A stretch of 64,000 nucleotides of DNA, from the IMG/VR virus record IMGVR_UViG_2596583600_000002, positions 14,752 to 78,751 of that record. The stretch is one strand, 5' to 3'. The translations under genes and the position numbers were made by a program. This document shows, piece by piece, positions 53,482 through 62,359 of the stretch. Positions within the stretch are counted from its first letter, which is position 1. Each line of letters starts with the position of its first letter. The notes beneath the pieces were generated by a model. That model had not been told where the DNA came from, made no database searches, and saw only the letters and a program-made list of their open reading frames with translations. The stretch is from a virus. Its lineage: Duplodnaviria > Caudoviricetes.

Positions 53482-54858
53482 ATTTCTTCGAAAAAGAAAA
53501 CCACGACGAAAGCGACGACAACCAACAGTCTGCCCGACTGGCTGACCAGCCCGTTTCAGCAGGCCACGCAGCGCGCCACGGCACTTTCGCAGCAGCCCGC
53601 CATCGGCTCAGGTACGCAGGCGGTCATTAACCGCACATTGTCCGACTCGGCGGCGGGCGCAGGCGCGGCGAACGACAACATCAATCTGATGCGTAATTTC
53701 GCCAACGGCAATTTCGGGAGCAACGCCACTGCGCTAACCGGCGCGGCGAATGGCGATTTTCTGGCGTCCAATCCGTTCACGGCCAACGGCCAGTTGAACA
53801 CCGATTATATCAACCAGAGCGGGCTAAACGCGACAGCGGCGGGCGGCGGGTTCGCCAATAATCCCTTCACCGCAAATGGCGGTTTCGACGCGGATTTCCT
53901 GCGCCAGATTGGCCTTTCCGGCATGGCCGAGAATGGCGGCCTCAACACCGGCTATATCGACAACAGCCTGCTCAACCGCACGGCGGCGGGCGACTTCCTG
54001 ACAGCCGACAGCAACCCTTATATCCGCGACGTCGCCCAAAGAGGGGCGGACTCGGCGCAGGCGGCGATCAACGCGCAATTCGGCGCGGCGGGGCGCTCGA
54101 ACGGTTCGGGTCTTTACGCTCAGCTATTCGGCCAGGGCATTTCGGACGCCTCGAACAGCGTCTATGCCCAGAATTACGCCAATGAGCGGCAGTTGCAGCA
54201 AGCGGCGCAAAACAGCCTTCTGGGAGCCAACCAGAGTGCGCAGGAGAACGCACTGGCCCGCCAGCTATCGGCGCAGAACTCGATGCTGGGTGCGCGCGAG
54301 AACGCCTACGGACGCCAGCAGACGGCCTATGAAAGCGAGGCGCAGCGGCAGCAGGCAGCGCAGAACAGCTTGCTTGGCGCGAACCAGACGGCGCGGGAAA
54401 ACGCCCTGTCGCGGCAGATGTCGTCCTATGACGCGGAACGCCAGCGGCAGCAGGCGGCGGCGGGCGGGCTGCTGAACACACAGCTTGCCGGGGCCGGTCA
54501 AATCCCCTCGCTGATTTCCTCCATGATCGCGTCCAATCAGGCGGGCCTCTCCGCAGGCCAGTATCAGGACAACGCCGATATGGAGCGGCTGCGGCAATAT
54601 ACCTCGATCCTGTCCGGCCTGTCGTCGCCCTACGGTATTCAGGACCAGAACTCGACCACCACGACCAAGAGCAGCGGCCTTGGCTCTGTGCTGGGGACCG
54701 TTGCGTCGCTTGGCAGCGCCATCGCGGCCCCCTTCACGGGCGGGGCGAGCCTGTTGGGCGGCGCGGCGGGAGGCGCAGGCGCAATCATGGGCGGCGGGTT
54801 CAACAGCGCTTTGGGCGGCATGGCGACCGGCGCGCTTCCGCAATGGCTGGGGAAATAA
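53482..54858 (+). CDS. DNA ejection protein with probable ATT start
   Basis: AGGAGG 5 nt before ATT TCT TCG AAA; G/N/Q/A-rich; SNPY, QF..AGR.GSG. Confidence 0.75.
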   Translation: MSSKKKTTTKATTTNSLPDWLTSPFQQATQRATALSQQPAIGSGTQAVINRTLSDSAAGAGAANDNINLMRNFANGNFGSNATALTGAANGDFLASNPFTANGQLNTDYINQSGLNATAAGGGFANNPFTANGGFDADFLRQIGLSGMAENGGLNTGYIDNSLLNRTAAGDFLTADSNPYIRDVAQRGADSAQAAINAQFGAAGRSNGSGLYAQLFGQGISDASNSVYAQNYANERQLQQAAQNSLLGANQSAQENALARQLSAQNSMLGARENAYGRQQTAYESEAQRQQAAQNSLLGANQTARENALSRQMSSYDAERQRQQAAAGGLLNTQLAGAGQIPSLISSMIASNQAGLSAGQYQDNADMERLRQYTSILSGLSSPYGIQDQNSTTTTKSSGLGSVLGTVASLGSAIAAPFTGGASLLGGAAGGAGAIMGGGFNSALGGMATGALPQWLGK

Positions 54859-54860
54859 CA

Positions 54861-55373
54861 ATGGCAGGCATCCTCTCCAAGATCGCGGGCGGCATTAACA
54901 AGTTCAGCGATGAACTGATCAACCCCACGTCCGCGCTGGGTCGCTTGGGCATGTTCCTGGGGGCCGCGTCCGGGTCCGATCTGGGGCAGGCGCAGATGAT
55001 GGCGGCGCAGGATGCGCGTTTGCGGCGGCGCGACATGTTCGATGACGAGGACCGCGATCTGGACCGGCAATATCGGCAGGCGCAGATTCAAAAGTTGCTC
55101 GCACCGCAGCAGCCCAACGACACCTATGAGCGCATCGTGGCGCGTCTGGGTCAGGGACAGGGCGACAGCTATTTGCGGACGCTGGCGGAAGGGCCGCCGA
55201 TCGCGGTTGATGTGCAGCAGGCCGATGGGTCCACCGTCCGCCAATATATGCCGCGCGGGCAGTTCGGCGGGAATTTCATGCCGCCGCAGCCGCAAGCAGC
55301 GCCTCCGGGTGTAACCTTCACTCCGATTGATGGAGGTCCGACGCAACCCGCGTCGGGCGGCTTTCGGCGCTGA
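54861..55373 (+). CDS. second ejection/internal virion protein
   Basis: position in operon; Gly-rich N-terminus, YRQAQIQKL. Confidence 0.7.
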   Translation: MAGILSKIAGGINKFSDELINPTSALGRLGMFLGAASGSDLGQAQMMAAQDARLRRRDMFDDEDRDLDRQYRQAQIQKLLAPQQPNDTYERIVARLGQGQGDSYLRTLAEGPPIAVDVQQADGSTVRQYMPRGQFGGNFMPPQPQAAPPGVTFTPIDGGPTQPASGGFRR

Positions 55374-55374
55374 T

Positions 55375-55746
55375 ATGCTGAACGACATCACCATGAGCGC
55401 GGAGAGCGGTGGGCGCAGATACGGGCGCAATGGGGGGCTGTTGACCAGCATGGCGGGGGCCATGGGGGAAATGCAGGTCATGCCCGGAACGGCGCGCGAT
55501 CCCGGCTTTGGCGTCAGGCCATGGCAAGGCGGTGCGGATGATCTTGCCCGCGTCGGGAGGGATTATCGGGCCGCCATGCAGAAGCGTTATGGCGGCGAAC
55601 CGGACAAGATGTGGGCGGCTTATAACTGGGGACCGGGCAACCTCGACAAGGCCATCGCCAGTCACGGCCCCGGCTGGATGAACGCCGCGCCTGCTGAAAC
55701 GCGCAATTACATCGCCCGTAATCTTCGCGCCTTGGGAGGTCATTGA
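55375..55746 (+). CDS. SLT lytic transglycosylase domain (possibly reached by +1 frameshift)
   Basis: AESGG, GAMGEMQVMPGTA, AAYNWGPG, ETRNY. Confidence 0.88.
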   Translation: MLNDITMSAESGGRRYGRNGGLLTSMAGAMGEMQVMPGTARDPGFGVRPWQGGADDLARVGRDYRAAMQKRYGGEPDKMWAAYNWGPGNLDKAIASHGPGWMNAAPAETRNYIARNLRALGGH

Positions 55747-58601
55747 TGGCAACGCAGTATAGAGATGGCCAGCGGCTCCAAGGATCGGACGGCAACGTCT
55801 ATGTCGTTCGCAACGGCGTCCCGACGCTTGAGCAGGCCCAGTCCGTACCGGGCGGGATCGTGGTGAAGCCTGCCGATCCGACGCTTGGCAGTAAGGTTGC
55901 CAAGGCGGCGAATGACGCGGCGGCATCTGTCTTTGATCCCCAGCGAGCGGCCACGTCTACCGCCCAAGGGCAATATGACCTCCGCACACAGCCGACCAAG
56001 GACAATATCAACCTCACAGGCGATCTTGCAAAGCGCTACACTAGCGATCCGGCTGTAAAACAGTATGCAGCCGCGATCCAGAGTTACGCTCGCGCCGTTG
56101 GGGCCAAGGACACGCCTCAGGGCGACCTCAGCCTGATCTATGCTTATGCCAAGATCATGGACCCGGACAGCGTGGTTCGCGAGGGTGAGGCCGCTAGCGT
56201 TTCCAATTCTGATACACTGGCAGGACAGCTTGTTGCCCGGTATCGCAAGGAGCTTGGCGAGGGAGGGGTGTTCAGCGCCACAGCCCGCCAAAATCTCCTG
56301 CAAGAAATGCGCAACGCCATGGGCGCGCTCAACGCCAGTTATGTGCAGGCGCGACAGACATATGGCCAGATTGCCCAGCAGAACGGCCTTGATGAGAAAC
56401 AGGTCATCGGCCCCCATGCCGGACTGCCATTCTCGAAGCGCGAGGCCCGGATGCGGGGCACCTCCGAACCGCAGCGGGATTTCTATGGCAATGTCACCGA
56501 ACCGGCGCGACCTATTGGAGGCATTCCGGAACCGGACCAGATTGACCCTACTGGCGGCAATCCCCTTCTGTCGCCGCAGGATCGCGCCGAGATAGCGGCC
56601 AATGCCCGCTATATGACGCCTGAGAGCATGCAGGCGTGGTTCCGCGACCGGGGGCTTCAAATCTCCCCGGACGAGGCGCGCAGGAATTATGATTACTACT
56701 CGCGCGGCGGGTCGCAGGACGCTGCGGTCAATGCGCCGCAAGGCGAAGGGTCGCTGTTGGGGAGGTTGGCTGGATCAACGCCGGGGATGGCCGTAGGGGG
56801 CTATCTGAACGGCGCATTGATGGGCGGTATGGATGAGGTGGCAGCGGGCATCGGTTCCGCCATCAATGGAACGCCGTATTCGGAAAATTTGAGAGAGGCT
56901 AATGCGAAGAAGCAGGCAATCGCCTCCGATAGCCCTTTGGCGTATGGAACCGGTAACGTCATTGGCGGCATCACAGGTGCTATCGGACTAGGTGCCCTTG
57001 GCATTGGCTCGCGGTTGCCGATTTTGACCGATATTGGCCTTGGGGCACTTGGCGGCGCGCTGGAGGAAAATGATAACCGTTCGGGCGGCGCAGCGTTGGG
57101 TGGCGCTTTCGGTGGCGCTACGGGCGGCGTCCTGCGCGGCCTCGCCGCCCTCCCCGGTCGCCCCGCTGGCGTTGATCTTCCGATAGCCCAGAATGTCGAA
57201 CGGGCGGGCGTTGATAATGTGCGCGGGAGCCTGATGGAGGCTCGCGATCTGGGGATTCCCATGTCGCTGGCGGACACCAATTCGATCATGTCCACGCTGG
57301 CGGGGTCGGCCACGCGCCTTTCGCCACAGGCGGAGGAAATCGCCATCGGCAGCATGGTCCCGCGCGCCCGTGGCCAGATAGACCGCTTCGGCGAAGCCAT
57401 TGAGCGCGATCTGGGTCCACTGGCGAACCCGATGGAGCAGAGCGAAGCACTGTTGCAGAAGGCGCGCCGCGATGCCGCACCTCTCTATGAGCGCGCCTAT
57501 GAAATGCCCGTCATCGGCACATCTGATCTTGATGCCATCCTGAACACGCCATTCGGGCGGCAGGCTCTTGGTAAGGCGCGGAATATTGCCGCGAATGAAA
57601 GGCGCAGTCCAGAAGCAATGGGCCTCCGCATGGATGCCGATGGCAATGTCGTGCTGGAGCCGACTGTGCCCATGACGCTGACCAACGCGGGCAGCGAGGG
57701 CGGCAATGCTGTTCAGCAGATGGGCTACACCATGCAGGCGCTCGACCAGACCAAGCAGGGTATGGACGATGTGCTGGAGCAGTATCGTAACCCGGTAACA
57801 GGAAAACTCGACCTGACACCGGCTGGAGTGGCTGAAAACGGCGTCCGCGCAGACCTTCTCAATCAACTGGATGAACTCAATCCCACATATGCGGAAGCGC
57901 GCCGTGCCTATCAGGGGCCGATGGAACTGCGTGACGCGCTGGCGACGGGCCGCGATGCCGTGCGCCGGACGCCGCGTGAGGTGCAGGCTATCTCCGGTCG
58001 CATGTCGCCCGCAGAGCAGCAGCAGATGCAGCTTGGCTATCGCGTCGGCCTTGATGACCGCGCGAACGATATACGGTACAGCAGCAACCCGTTCGAAGGC
58101 GTCCTGGGACCGCCAGCCGCCGAACAGCGCCTGTCCGCAGTCTATGGCGATAACAACCCCGGTGTGACCCGGCTGCTGCGCCAGCGTGACATTGAACGCC
58201 AGCTTGCAGGTTCGACCAATGACGTTTTGGGCAACAGCAAGACAGCCAAGCGCATCCTTGCCGATGAGAGTTTCATGAACGGGATACCGGGCGGGATCAT
58301 CGACGTGGGGGCCGATCTGGCGACCGGCAATGCGCCTATCGGTTCAGCGTTGCGCGCCTTGGGGGCTGGGGCCTTGCGCGACCGTGCAAAAATGGGCGCC
58401 ATGCGCGGCGCTCAGCAGCGCGCGGACGAAATGGCCCCTATCCTGTTCAATACGGACACGCCTGCCGCGCTGGATACGCTGGACGAGATACTGGCGCGGA
58501 CTTCCGCCTATCGCAATCGCCAGCGGCTCTTGCAGCCTATCGCGGGAAGCACTGGCGGCGTGATCGGCGGCATGGTGCCGGGTTGGTTAAGTGGAAATTG
58601 A
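55746..58601 (+). CDS. large ejection/internal virion protein
   Basis: about 950 aa; KIMDPDSVVREGE, Gly-rich hydrophobic stretches, GNSKTA. Confidence 0.75.
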   Translation: MATQYRDGQRLQGSDGNVYVVRNGVPTLEQAQSVPGGIVVKPADPTLGSKVAKAANDAAASVFDPQRAATSTAQGQYDLRTQPTKDNINLTGDLAKRYTSDPAVKQYAAAIQSYARAVGAKDTPQGDLSLIYAYAKIMDPDSVVREGEAASVSNSDTLAGQLVARYRKELGEGGVFSATARQNLLQEMRNAMGALNASYVQARQTYGQIAQQNGLDEKQVIGPHAGLPFSKREARMRGTSEPQRDFYGNVTEPARPIGGIPEPDQIDPTGGNPLLSPQDRAEIAANARYMTPESMQAWFRDRGLQISPDEARRNYDYYSRGGSQDAAVNAPQGEGSLLGRLAGSTPGMAVGGYLNGALMGGMDEVAAGIGSAINGTPYSENLREANAKKQAIASDSPLAYGTGNVIGGITGAIGLGALGIGSRLPILTDIGLGALGGALEENDNRSGGAALGGAFGGATGGVLRGLAALPGRPAGVDLPIAQNVERAGVDNVRGSLMEARDLGIPMSLADTNSIMSTLAGSATRLSPQAEEIAIGSMVPRARGQIDRFGEAIERDLGPLANPMEQSEALLQKARRDAAPLYERAYEMPVIGTSDLDAILNTPFGRQALGKARNIAANERRSPEAMGLRMDADGNVVLEPTVPMTLTNAGSEGGNAVQQMGYTMQALDQTKQGMDDVLEQYRNPVTGKLDLTPAGVAENGVRADLLNQLDELNPTYAEARRAYQGPMELRDALATGRDAVRRTPREVQAISGRMSPAEQQQMQLGYRVGLDDRANDIRYSSNPFEGVLGPPAAEQRLSAVYGDNNPGVTRLLRQRDIERQLAGSTNDVLGNSKTAKRILADESFMNGIPGGIIDVGADLATGNAPIGSALRALGAGALRDRAKMGAMRGAQQRADEMAPILFNTDTPAALDTLDEILARTSAYRNRQRLLQPIAGSTGGVIGGMVPGWLSGN

Positions 58602-61659: not shown

Positions 61660-61781
61660 GCAAGGAAGAACTGACGATCATTTTCATCGGCTCGATGCTG
61701 GCGGCCATATTCGGGCTGTGGCGGGCCTATGCGGCGCAGAAGCGGTGCGATGGACATAGGTGTGGGAGGATGAAGCCGTGA
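61656..61781 (+). CDS. 41-aa single-TM peptide
   Basis: AGGAG RBS; overlaps both neighbours. Confidence 0.5.
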   Translation: MSKEELTIIFIGSMLAAIFGLWRAYAAQKRCDGHRCGRMKP

Positions 61782-62359
61782 CCATTGACGCGAAGCTCCT
61801 GCAACGCCGCCTTGGTGTGGCGCAGGACGGCATCATAGGCCGTGATACGTGGCGGGCCGTGTTCGCCCGCTTCGGCGCGGACCCAACGAAAGCGCGCGCG
61901 CTCGCCATCGCCATGAACGTCTACGCGGCAACCTATGACATGATGACGCCGCTCAGGCTGTCCCACTTCTTTGCCCAGCTTGTCCATGAAAGCGGCTCGT
62001 TCCGTTATATGGAGGAAATCGCCTCCGGAGCCGCCTATGAAGGACGGAAAGACCTCGGCAATGTCGTCGCGGGGGACGGCAAGCGGTATAAGGGGCGCGG
62101 TCCCTTGCAGATAACCGGGCGGGCCAATTACCAGCGCTTCGGGCGGCTGATCGGGATCGACATCGAGGACAGCCCGGAACTGGCGGCGCACCCCTCCATC
62201 GGCCTGCATCTGGCGCTGGAATATTGGCGCGACCGCAAGTTGAACGCGATGGCTGACCGCGATGACGTGGTGGCTGTCACCAAGGCGGTGAACGGCGGCA
62301 GCAATGGCCTGTCGGATCGGATGGCGCAACTGTCCAAAGCGAAGGGGTTGTTCGCATGA
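61778..62359 (+). CDS. GH19 endolysin with peptidoglycan-binding N-terminus
   Basis: LQRRLGV..DGIIG..T; FAQLVHESG, YKGRGPLQITGRANY, VNGG.NGL.DR. Confidence 0.92.
   Translation: MTIDAKLLQRRLGVAQDGIIGRDTWRAVFARFGADPTKARALAIAMNVYAATYDMMTPLRLSHFFAQLVHESGSFRYMEEIASGAAYEGRKDLGNVVAGDGKRYKGRGPLQITGRANYQRFGRLIGIDIEDSPELAAHPSIGLHLALEYWRDRKLNAMADRDDVVAVTKAVNGGSNGLSDRMAQLSKAKGLFA

What the first reader, a model, noticed from the sequence alone, without database searches (positions are those of the whole stretch)
55332..55377. Candidate +1 frameshift signal (SD, hairpin, UUU-CGG) fusing an ejection protein to a lytic transglycosylase
Seen: ORF 54861 ends GGAGGT-CCGACGC-aaccc-GCGTCGG-GC-GGC-TTT-CGG-CGC-TGA. 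A +1 slip from TTT to TTC enters the open SLT frame (TTC GGC GCT GAT ATG). The SLT ATG at 55375 has no nearby SD, and the strong GGAGGT has no start codon at normal spacing. With the hairpin looped out, the SD lies about 3 nt from the UUU. Known: prfB uses an SD 3 nt upstream for +1 shifting, UUU-CGN is a +1 site in eukaryotic viruses, and podovirus ejection proteins often carry muralytic domains. Inference: two product forms, with and without SLT, made by a recoding element I do not recognise as described.
Basis: partly seen in the sequence, partly recalled or inferred. Interest (0 to 1): 0.75.

Follow-up and report, generated by a model that had tools for sequence, protein, structure and literature searches.

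The report
Conserved +1 frameshift cassette in phage
A short, strongly conserved RNA signal at the end of a prophage ejection-protein gene most likely makes some ribosomes slip forward one base, so that a cell-wall-cutting enzyme is fused to that protein; this signal seems not to have been described before.

Summary
At 55332-55365 the window reads GGAGGT, a 7-bp hairpin with a 5-nt loop, GCGGC, then TTT_C. The 0-frame stop follows two codons later. An SLT domain is open in the +1 frame.

Pattern scans of viral contigs found the same 34-nt cassette in 45 distinct contexts, whose N-terminal proteins fall into 38 clusters at 50% identity.
- Without being required by the scan, GGAGGT was present in 19 of 19 hits and TTT(C/T) at fixed spacing in 40 of 40.
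- The stem pairs in 301 of 301 cells, with compensatory changes at 3 of 7 pairs.
- In 43 of 45 contexts a wall-degrading-type domain (SLT, Peptidase_M15_3 or a third type) lies in +1.
- The 0-frame stop falls within five codons in 39 of 42.
- Four loci have no ATG/GTG/TTG before the catalytic motif.
- Relatives encode the same two domains as single ORFs.

Best reading (0.8): a programmed +1 ribosomal frameshift at UUU_C, stimulated from the 5' side by a Shine-Dalgarno-like sequence plus a hairpin, giving a 170-aa and a 294-aa form. No protein evidence exists. Seven literature searches and Rfam found no description. This is a new variant of a known kind.

The parts
54861..55373 (+). Frame-0 ORF of the small internal-virion (ejection) protein, the short form of 170 aa. 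An in-frame ATG at 54843 would give 176 aa.
   Evidence: Homologs start at the residue matching 54861 and end 1-9 residues after the conserved Phe. No Pfam or PHROG family matches.
55332..55337 (+). Shine-Dalgarno-like GGAGGT, encoded as the rare Gly codons GGA GGT
   Evidence: Present in 19 of 19 hits of a scan that did not require it. GGA and GGT make up 13% and 14% of Gly codons in flanking ORFs. The same hexamer, 5 nt before an ATG, serves the next gene.
55338..55356 (+). Hairpin: 7-bp stem CCGACGC/GCGTCGG with 5-nt loop AACCC
   Evidence: Across 45 loci, 301 of 301 cells are paired and 3 of 7 pairs show changes on both sides; 0 of 500 shuffles reach the covariation score.
55357..55361 (+). 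5-nt spacer GCGGC between the hairpin and the shift codon
   Evidence: The length is fixed at 5 nt in all 45 pattern-found contexts, and was not required in the 40-locus scan. The sequence varies.
55362..55365 (+). Proposed +1 shift site TTT_C (Phe tRNA re-pairs from UUU to UUC)
   Evidence: TTT in 40 of 40 loci of the scan with no constraint downstream of the hairpin. TTT is 16% of Phe codons in this prophage and 27% in the flanks of the loci. Nucleotide conservation ends exactly here.
55371..55373 (+). Frame-0 stop TGA, two codons after the shift codon
   Evidence: The stop falls within five codons in 39 of 42 loci, against 11.8% expected from the stop density of that frame.
55366..55746 (+). 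+1-frame continuation: 126 codons encoding an SLT lytic transglycosylase domain, then stop TGA at 55744-55746. Together with codons 54861-55364 this gives a 294-aa long form.
   Evidence: Pfam SLT at 31.6 bits against a cut-off of 21.3. PHROG 19855 at E 2.4e-33 matches from residue 14 of the 55330-start reading, which is next to the junction.
55375..55377 (+). ATG one base after the frame-0 stop: the rival start for a free-standing SLT protein
   Evidence: No SD at normal spacing. The rival cannot be excluded from the window alone.
55735..58601 (+). Next gene: SD GGAGGT (55735-55740), ATG 55746 overlapping the SLT stop (TGATG), and a large internal-virion protein of about 951 aa
   Evidence: PHROG 5880 at E 2.1e-38.
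61760..62359 (+). Separate endolysin gene of the prophage. This implies the SLT at 55366 is not the lysis enzyme.
   Evidence: PHROG 181 endolysin at E 6.7e-50.

Best explanation
The 34-nt cassette at 55332-55365 is a programmed +1 ribosomal frameshift signal in a podovirus-like prophage.

Ribosomes translating the small ejection-protein gene (from 54861) reach UUU at 55362.
- Some go on in frame and stop at TGA 55371, giving a 170-aa short form.
- In others the P-site Phe-tRNA re-pairs from UUU to UUC. Reading then continues from 55366 through the SLT domain to 55743, giving a 294-aa long form that carries a wall-cutting enzyme into the virion.

Shown here:
- the cassette, its near-invariance, and the covarying stem;
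- the fixed spacing and the use of rare codons;
- the constant +1 position of a swappable wall-degrading-type domain;
- selection for an early frame-0 stop;
- loci with no possible start codon;
- single-ORF fusions in relatives.

Inferred (about 0.5):
- GGAGGU pairs with the 16S anti-SD behind the ribosome.
- The hairpin, whose 3' arm ends 5 nt before the P-site codon, re-zips as it leaves the mRNA exit. This pulls the mRNA 5'-ward and favours a forward slip on UUU_Y whatever the A-site codon.
- The ratio of the two forms sets how many ejection-protein copies are armed with the enzyme.
For: 1. A peptide-level degenerate scan found 7 of 7 viral loci carrying nearly the same DNA, third codon positions included.
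2. A scan with a free stem interior gave 31 loci, of which 30 were real.
3. A scan without the SD gave 19 of 19 with GGAGGT.
4. A scan without any downstream constraint gave 40 of 40 with a 5-nt spacer followed by TTT(C/T).
5. The census gives 45 distinct contexts, in 38 N-domain clusters at 50% identity.
6. The stem is paired in 301 of 301 cells. Three of 7 pairs carry double changes (15 cells). Zero of 500 shuffles reach the score, and slid controls pair in 29-42% of cells.
7. Three loci found by protein homology, not by DNA pattern, carry variant cassettes with +1 M15 domains. L079 has GGAGGA and a 6-bp stem. L101 has the first pair swapped to G-C. L102 is 3 nt shorter.
8. Of 42 downstream products scanned, 21 are SLT, 13 are Peptidase_M15_3 and 8 have no Pfam match. 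Seven of those 8 share a domain with PHROGs annotated endolysin, tape measure or injection transglycosylase (4 of the 7 scanned).
9. Of the 43 loci with the +1 arrangement, 4 have no ATG/GTG/TTG anywhere in the +1 ORF before the catalytic landmark, and 8 have none from codon -11 onward. L098, in another genus, has only 11 open +1 codons upstream and no start among them.
10. The frame-0 stop falls within five codons in 39 of 42, against 11.8% expected.
11. The shift codon is TTT in 45 of 45, although TTT is 27% of flanking Phe codons.
12. P0025, P0042 and P0044 are single ORFs with the same N-domain plus M15 or SLT. L063 and L074 keep the cassette with the domain in frame 0.
13. Homologs without a wall-degrading-type domain (L081, L083) lack the cassette.
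14. The covariance model R1 finds exactly one full-length site per locus in 642 kb.
15. A review states that UUU_Ynn is especially +1-prone in bacteria, and that 5' stem-loops stimulated +1 shifting in synthetic constructs (PMC5009743, passages).
Against: - There is no protein, ribosome-profiling or reporter evidence. No RNA run is available.
- In the window itself an ATG lies 1 nt after the frame-0 stop (55375) and another at 55330, so separate initiation is possible here. 29 of 43 loci have some ATG/GTG/TTG between the shift site and my landmark, though the landmark was undefined in 11 loci.
- There is no conserved slow A-site codon. The commonest is CGC, an abundant Arg codon. Known bacterial +1 sites usually have a slow codon there.
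- Most loci were found with patterns built from the cassette. Conservation of the required letters is therefore by construction, and covariation can be judged only at the 5 inner pairs of the set.
- The loci are related, so the binomial and shuffle figures overstate significance.
- GGAGG can also pair with CUUUC (folds), so its conservation need not mean anti-SD pairing.
Confidence: 0.8

Rival explanations
1. These are two ordinary genes. The SLT protein is made on its own, by termination-reinitiation at ATG 55375 (TGA-T-ATG) or from ATG 55330. The conserved cassette would be a coupling or ribosome-holding device, or would be unrelated to SLT expression.
For: - ATG 55375 lies 1 nt after the stop, and ATG 55330 and TTG 55327 are in the SLT frame.
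- An NTG stands directly before GAG GTC at codon -11 in 8 of the 43 audited +1-arrangement loci (6 ATG, 1 GTG, 1 TTG).
- The early frame-0 stop would also suit reinitiation.
- Gene callers treat the N-protein as a separate ORF of 160-208 aa.
Against: - 4 of 43 loci have no canonical start in the +1 ORF before the catalytic motif, and 8 have none from codon -11 on. L098 is similar.
- There is no SD at normal spacing before 55375 or 55330.
- In several SLT loci the Pfam match begins 2-14 residues after the junction Phe, leaving little or no room for a separate N-terminus.
- Single-ORF fusions exist.
- A free enzyme of about 12 kDa would have no evident route into the capsid (inference).
Confidence: 0.1
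2. The cassette acts at the DNA or RNA level without recoding. It could be a conserved recombination joint for swapping enzyme modules, or a hairpin controlling mRNA stability or processing. The frame offset would be incidental.
For: - Conservation stops exactly at TTTC, and different enzyme types follow it.
- Close N-terminal sub-modules are joined to different enzymes, for example L046 to SLT and L052 to M15. This fits exchange at the cassette.
Against: - A recombination joint does not explain the constant +1 offset (43 of 45), the invariant rare codons GGA GGT and TTT, the fixed spacing, the compensatory stem changes, or the selected early stop.
- The cassette has no T-run, so it does not look like a terminator.
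- Exchange at the cassette is more likely a by-product of its conservation.
Confidence: 0.05
3. This is recoding of another type: a -2 shift, a short hop, or transcriptional slippage.
For: The downstream frame (+1, equivalent to -2) does not by itself tell these apart.
Against: - There is no homopolymer longer than TTT (or TTTT in 2 loci) for polymerase slippage.
- Re-pairing of Phe-tRNA two bases back, onto GCU or ACU, is not possible (sequence).
- There are no matched take-off and landing codons.
Confidence: 0.03

Closest known systems
prfB (release factor 2) programmed +1 frameshift
   Same: A bacterial +1 shift by P-site slippage on an NUU_Y tetranucleotide, helped by an internal Shine-Dalgarno-like sequence pairing with 16S rRNA (PMC5009743 and PMC10885494, passages).
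   Different: - prfB uses CUU_UGA, with a stop codon in the A site and the SD 3 nt upstream.
- Here the A-site codon is a sense codon in 43 of 45 loci and varies.
- The SD is 25 nt upstream, with a conserved covarying hairpin in between.
- The product is a virion protein, not an autoregulated factor.
UUU_Y +1-prone sites: Yersinia YopN-TyeA fusion, Mesorhizobium ICE activator, influenza PA-X UCC_UUU_CGU, amalgavirus UUU_CGN
   Same: The same slippery tetranucleotide UUU_Y. Two neighbouring ORFs are fused into one protein (PMC5009743 passages; PMC5052127 and PMC4914553, abstracts in listings only).
   Different: None of these is described with an SD-plus-5'-hairpin stimulator. CGN is not conserved here.
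5' stem-loops acting at the mRNA exit: T4 gene 60 bypass 5' stem-loop, and the SARS-CoV attenuator hairpin
   Same: A hairpin a few nucleotides 5' of the recoding site, proposed to pull mRNA as it re-forms. The attenuator stimulated +1 shifting in synthetic constructs (PMC5009743, passages).
   Different: Those are a bypass element and a -1 attenuator. A natural +1 site that depends on such a hairpin, joined to an SD, did not turn up in my searches.
Listeria phages PSA, A118 and A500: +1 frameshifts in capsid and tail genes
   Same: Phage structural proteins that receive a C-terminal extension through a +1 shift, giving two forms (PMC5009743, passages).
   Different: The shift sites are CCC_UGA or CCC_UCC, with a 3' pseudoknot or a stop codon. 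The hosts are low-GC Gram-positives, and the extension is not an enzyme.
T7 gp16-type internal virion proteins with a wall-cutting (muralytic) domain, and the tail-chaperone G/GT -1 frameshift
   Same: - An ejection protein carrying an SLT domain. This rests on recalled knowledge plus a weak PHROG 342 match at E 7.9e-4.
- The logic of making two forms in a fixed ratio, as in G/GT (recalled).
   Different: - In T7 the domain is N-terminal and in frame.
- G/GT is a -1 shift on a heptanucleotide.
- Here the enzyme is C-terminal, reached by a +1 shift, and interchangeable (SLT, M15 or a third domain).

Membership tests
Programmed ribosomal frameshift site (general criteria) | The slippery site is conserved at the same position in diverged homologs | tested here: met
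   TTT(C/T) lies 5 nt after the hairpin in 45 of 45 contexts, including 40 of 40 in the scan that did not require it.
Programmed ribosomal frameshift site (general criteria) | A conserved stimulatory element, with covariation if it is structured | tested here: met
   GGAGGT in 19 of 19 hits when not required. The stem is 100% paired, with 3 of 7 pairs carrying compensatory changes. A further swap of the first pair is seen in L101.
Programmed ribosomal frameshift site (general criteria) | The downstream ORF lacks its own initiation signal | tested here: inconclusive
   Across the family, 4 of 43 loci have no start codon at all and 8 of 43 have none from codon -11 on. In the window itself ATG 55375 and ATG 55330 exist, but without an SD.
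Programmed ribosomal frameshift site (general criteria) | The trans-frame protein is detected | not testable with these tools
   No proteome or RNA data are available, and no RNA holder was listed.
prfB-type +1 site | A stop codon in the A site at the shift (CUU_UGA) | tested here: not met
   The window has UUU_CGG. Only 2 of 45 loci have UUU_UAA or UUU_UGA.
prfB-type +1 site | SD about 3 nt upstream of the shift codon | tested here: not met
   GGAGG ends 25 nt before UUU. The gap is 6 nt if the 7-bp hairpin is looped out.
UUU_Y +1-prone tetranucleotide (PMC5009743) | UUU followed by a pyrimidine | tested here: met
   TTTC in 43 and TTTT in 2 of 45 contexts.
SLT lytic transglycosylase domain (Pfam PF01464) | Score above the Pfam gathering cut-off | tested here: met
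   31.6 bits against 21.3 for window:55363-55743. The E-S motif 13 residues after the junction was seen by eye; its catalytic role is recalled, not tested.
Any Rfam RNA family | A match to a curated covariance model | tested here: not met
   0 matches at E up to 10 over 55000-55800.
T7 gp16-like internal virion protein | Sequence homology and position among ejection-protein genes | tested here: inconclusive
   Only the SLT part hits PHROG 342, weakly (E 7.9e-4). The position, after the tail genes and before a large virion protein, fits.

The most novel reading that the evidence does not exclude
This would be the first natural +1 frameshift signal driven wholly from the 5' side. An internal GGAGGU anchors the mRNA to the anti-SD, while an adjacent hairpin re-zips at the mRNA exit and pulls the message, forcing a forward slip on UUU_Y with no slow A-site codon. 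The 34-nt unit would be portable. A wide clade of uncultured podophages and prophages would use it to set the ratio of enzyme-armed to unarmed ejection proteins. It would also serve as the joint at which SLT, M15 and other wall-degrading domains are exchanged.
Probability: 0.45. Interest if true: 0.9.

Novelty: new variant of a known kind. Interest (0 to 1): 0.85.

Why it matters
- Natural bacterial +1 frameshift signals are few and mostly depend on a slow or stop codon in the A site. A compact, sequence-defined cassette acting only from the 5' side would give a clean model for how SD pairing and co-translational refolding move the reading frame. It would also provide a small part for engineering fixed product ratios.
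- For phage biology, it shows how a family of ejection proteins acquires interchangeable wall-degrading heads.
- For annotation, the small 'orphan' SLT and M15 ORFs in many viral contigs and prophages would be mis-called. They would be the C-terminal halves of trans-frame virion proteins.

Tried and rejected
- **Single-protein locus searches.** Searching with the 176-aa protein found nothing in genome contigs or viral contigs. The 17-sequence alignment was too diverse for the tool.
- **Degenerate peptide pattern in genome contigs.** It gave 24 hits, none with the cassette, which I take as chance. L013 is a possible degenerate look-alike that I did not follow up.
- **L002 (G012).** This weak hit lies in an antisense open frame opposite ordinary genes and is spurious.
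- **Class-level pattern search.** 15 of 401 genomes matched, but only G000 and G206 carry a hairpin. The reversed-pattern control matched about as often.
- **Family-level search with model R1.** 2 of 151 genomes matched.
- **Isolated phages (INPHARED).** No record holds the cassette by blastn at E up to 10. tblastn with the N-domain found no match. Only 4 weak matches were found for the 952-aa protein.
- **Homology-based scans with A3.** Only 3 viral and 2 metagenome loci were returned, so the pattern-free sample is small.
- **Rfam.** No match.
- **RNA data.** No RNA holder was listed, and read laying was not used.
- **Literature.** Seven answered searches and passages of four papers turned up no description of this cassette. 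The tables of PRFect and of the podovirus structural-gene papers might list such cases.

Full report
**Observation.** The reported string is present exactly as described.
- GGAGGT lies at 55332-55337.
- The stem arms CCGACGC (55338-55344) and GCGTCGG (55350-55356) flank the loop AACCC.
- Then follow GCGGC, TTT at 55362-55364, CGG, CGC and TGA at 55371-55373.
- Frame 0 is an ORF from 54843 or 54861 that ends ...GGPTQPASGGFRR.
- The +1 frame is open from 55315 to TGA at 55744-55746 and encodes an SLT domain (Pfam 31.6 bits against a cut-off of 21.3).

The composite pattern, with two mismatches allowed, occurs once in the window and never in 100 shuffles. It occurs once in the 4.84-Mb genome. GGAGGT alone (31 matches against 22.9 expected) and the hairpin alone (z -1.9 to -2.9) are not remarkable.

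**Context.** The window holds a podovirus-like prophage.
- Its genes include primase/helicase (40480), large terminase (43302), portal (44990), major head protein (48113), a virion structural protein (50592) and a tail fibre (51902).
- Three genes without Pfam families follow: 406 aa, 170 aa, and about 951 aa. The SLT ORF sits between the last two.
- A separate endolysin lies at 61760.
- The gene after SLT starts at ATG 55746, which overlaps the SLT stop, and is preceded by GGAGGT at a 5-nt spacing. GGAGGT is therefore what a working SD looks like in this phage.

**Comparative scans.** Protein homologs of the 170-aa protein are 160-208 aa long. All 15 full-length ones end 1-9 residues after a conserved Phe, even where the rest of the protein has diverged to about 40% identity.
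- A scan degenerate at all third codon positions for PTQPASGGF found 7 viral loci. All 7 carried almost the same DNA, differing only in one loop base and two wobble bases.
- A scan that left the 15 inner hairpin bases free gave 31 loci. Thirty were real. L050 has no hairpin and lies inside a long ORF.
- A scan without the SD gave 19 loci, all with GGAGGT.
- A scan with the SD and hairpin but nothing downstream gave 40 loci. All had a 5-nt spacer followed by TTT(C/T).

In total, 53 hits make 46 distinct contexts, of which 45 are real, the window included. Their N-terminal proteins form 38 clusters at 50% identity and 23 clusters at 40%.

**Structure.** All 301 cells of the 7-bp stem form standard pairs. 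Three of the 7 pairs show changes on both sides (A-U to G-C or U-A; C-G to G-C; G-C to C-G), in 15 cells. Zero of 500 shuffles reach the covariation score, and slid registers pair in only 29-42% of cells. The two outer pairs and the third were fixed by the patterns. However L101, found through protein homology, has the first pair swapped to G-C.

**What follows the cassette.**
- In 43 of 45 contexts the +1 frame from TTC encodes a domain of 81-129 aa (two loci are cut by the locus end).
- Of 42 products scanned, 21 are SLT, 13 are Peptidase_M15_3 and 8 have no Pfam match.
- Seven of those 8 share an 'NNPG..LRVPGS' domain. The 4 of them that I scanned match internal parts of PHROGs annotated endolysin, tape measure or injection transglycosylase.
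- The frame-0 stop comes within five codons in 39 of 42 loci, against 11.8% expected from the stop density of that frame further on. The loci are related, so the p-value is overstated.
- Of the 43 loci with the +1 arrangement, 4 (L009, L034, L041, L049) have no ATG/GTG/TTG anywhere in the +1 ORF before the catalytic landmark. Eight have none from codon -11 on.
- L098, from a genome of another genus in the same family, has only 11 open +1 codons upstream and no start among them.
- The shift codon is TTT in 45 of 45, though TTT is 27% of flanking Phe codons and 16% in this prophage. GGA and GGT are 13% and 14% of Gly codons.
- The frame-0 A-site codon varies (CGC 12, CCC 9, CTC 5, others fewer; a stop codon in 2).

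**Fusions and pattern-free evidence.**
- In L063 and L074 the cassette is intact but the domain is in frame 0, and the +1 frame stops at once (TTC TAG). The two loci are related, so this counts as one event.
- I read 12 of the 40 representative homologs. Three of them, P0025, P0042 and P0044, are single ORFs that combine the N-domain with Peptidase_M15_3 or SLT.
- Loci found by homology rather than by pattern carry variants of the cassette. L079, L080 and L082 have GGAGGA and a 6-bp stem. L101 is described above. L102 has GGAGGC, a 6-bp stem and a 3-nt spacer. Each has an M15 domain in +1.
- Homologs without a wall-degrading-type domain (L081, L083) have no cassette.
- Model R1 finds exactly one full-length site per locus in 642 kb and also picks up L101, which was not used to build it.

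**Mechanism.**
- *Shown:* a conserved, structured 5' element ends at UUU_Y, with the frames arranged as a +1 shift requires.
- *From established knowledge:* UUU_Ynn is especially +1-prone in bacteria. Internal SD sequences stimulate frameshifting. 5' stem-loops can stimulate +1 shifting in synthetic constructs and help drive T4 gene 60 bypassing (PMC5009743 passages; bioRxiv 10.1101/2020.04.16.045807, abstract).
- *Inferred:* with UUU in the P site, the 3' arm of the hairpin (6-12 nt upstream) is just leaving the ribosome. The 5' arm would be held nearby by GGAGGU paired to the anti-SD. Completion of the stem would pull the mRNA and favour re-pairing of Phe-tRNA on UUC.
- *Alternative role for GGAGG:* it could pair with CUUUC (folds). 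This cannot be excluded.
- *Predicted products in the window:* a 170-aa form (54861-55373) and a 294-aa form (codons 54861-55364 followed by 55366-55743).

**Rivals.**
- Separate initiation or reinitiation remains possible for the window alone (ATG 55375). It fails as a general account, for the reasons given above.
- A pure recombination joint does not explain the frame, the codon choice, the spacing or the covariation. Module exchange at the cassette is, however, likely as a by-product.
- A -2 shift, a hop or transcriptional slippage lacks the needed sequence features.

**Comparison and novelty.** The site works like a +1 frameshift on UUU_Y. It is not a prfB-type site, because it has no A-site stop and no SD at 3 nt. 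No Rfam family matches. No isolated phage in the collection carries it. It is rare in genomes: 2 of 151 in the family sample and 2 real among 401 in the class sample. Seven literature searches and passages of PMC5009743, PMC10885494, PMC10386132 and PMC4819975 gave no description of it. Supplements could not be read.

**Verdict.** This is a new variant of a known kind. Confidence in +1 recoding is 0.8, and the mechanism details are about 0.5. The main gap is the absence of any protein-level evidence.

Noticed in passing
L063:4066-4392 and L074:504-857: The arrangement is reversed. The cassette is intact, but the 'NNPG' domain is in frame 0 and the +1 frame stops at once (TTC TAG). Here a +1 shift would make the short form rather than the long one. 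The two loci are related (at least 50% N-domain identity), so this is one event.
   Followed up: partly
window 55735-55748: The large virion-protein gene starts at ATG 55746, which overlaps the SLT-frame stop (TGATG). It has GGAGGT 5 nt upstream. Its translation may therefore be coupled to ribosomes that are in the SLT frame.
   Followed up: partly
L004, L006, L007, L043, L046, L048, L052, L053, L056 (just before the cassette); L107 and L108 (protein C-termini): The motif G-Y-R/K-F-K-G-G-N/D-P...W-E-x-V directly precedes the cassette in 9 loci. It also ends large virion proteins that carry an internal M15 domain or an N-terminal SLT domain. Its function is unknown.
   Followed up: no
L046 versus L052, and other pairs: Near-identical sub-modules before the cassette are joined to different enzyme types (SLT versus M15). 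This suggests that modules are exchanged by recombination at the conserved 34 nt.
   Followed up: partly
window 55332-55366; L034, L041, L042, L101, L102: In minimum-energy folds GGAGG pairs with (C)CUUU(C) around the hairpin. The SD-like sequence and the shift site can therefore form the base of one longer helix.
   Followed up: partly
window 55330; L058, L065, L072, L073, L074: Asp before Gly-Gly is encoded as GAT, which is unusual at this GC content. That creates an ATG in the +1 frame directly before GAG GTC. L063 uses GAC at the same place.
   Followed up: no
window 53638-54858: A 406-aa protein rich in Gly, Asn, Ala and Gln, with internal repeats (AQNSLLGANQ...ENAL.RQ), lies upstream. 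It has no Pfam or PHROG match and is presumably another internal virion protein.
   Followed up: no
L013:6917-6943 (-): A stretch in a bacterial genome bin encodes PTQPASGGF and resembles a degenerate copy of the hairpin region. It has no GGAGGT and no wall-degrading-type domain in +1. It may be a remnant or a chance match.
   Followed up: no
L069 and L075: In two loci the shift site is TTT_T followed directly by a frame-0 stop (TAA or TGA). This is the classical form with a stop codon in the A site, attached to the same 5' cassette.
   Followed up: partly
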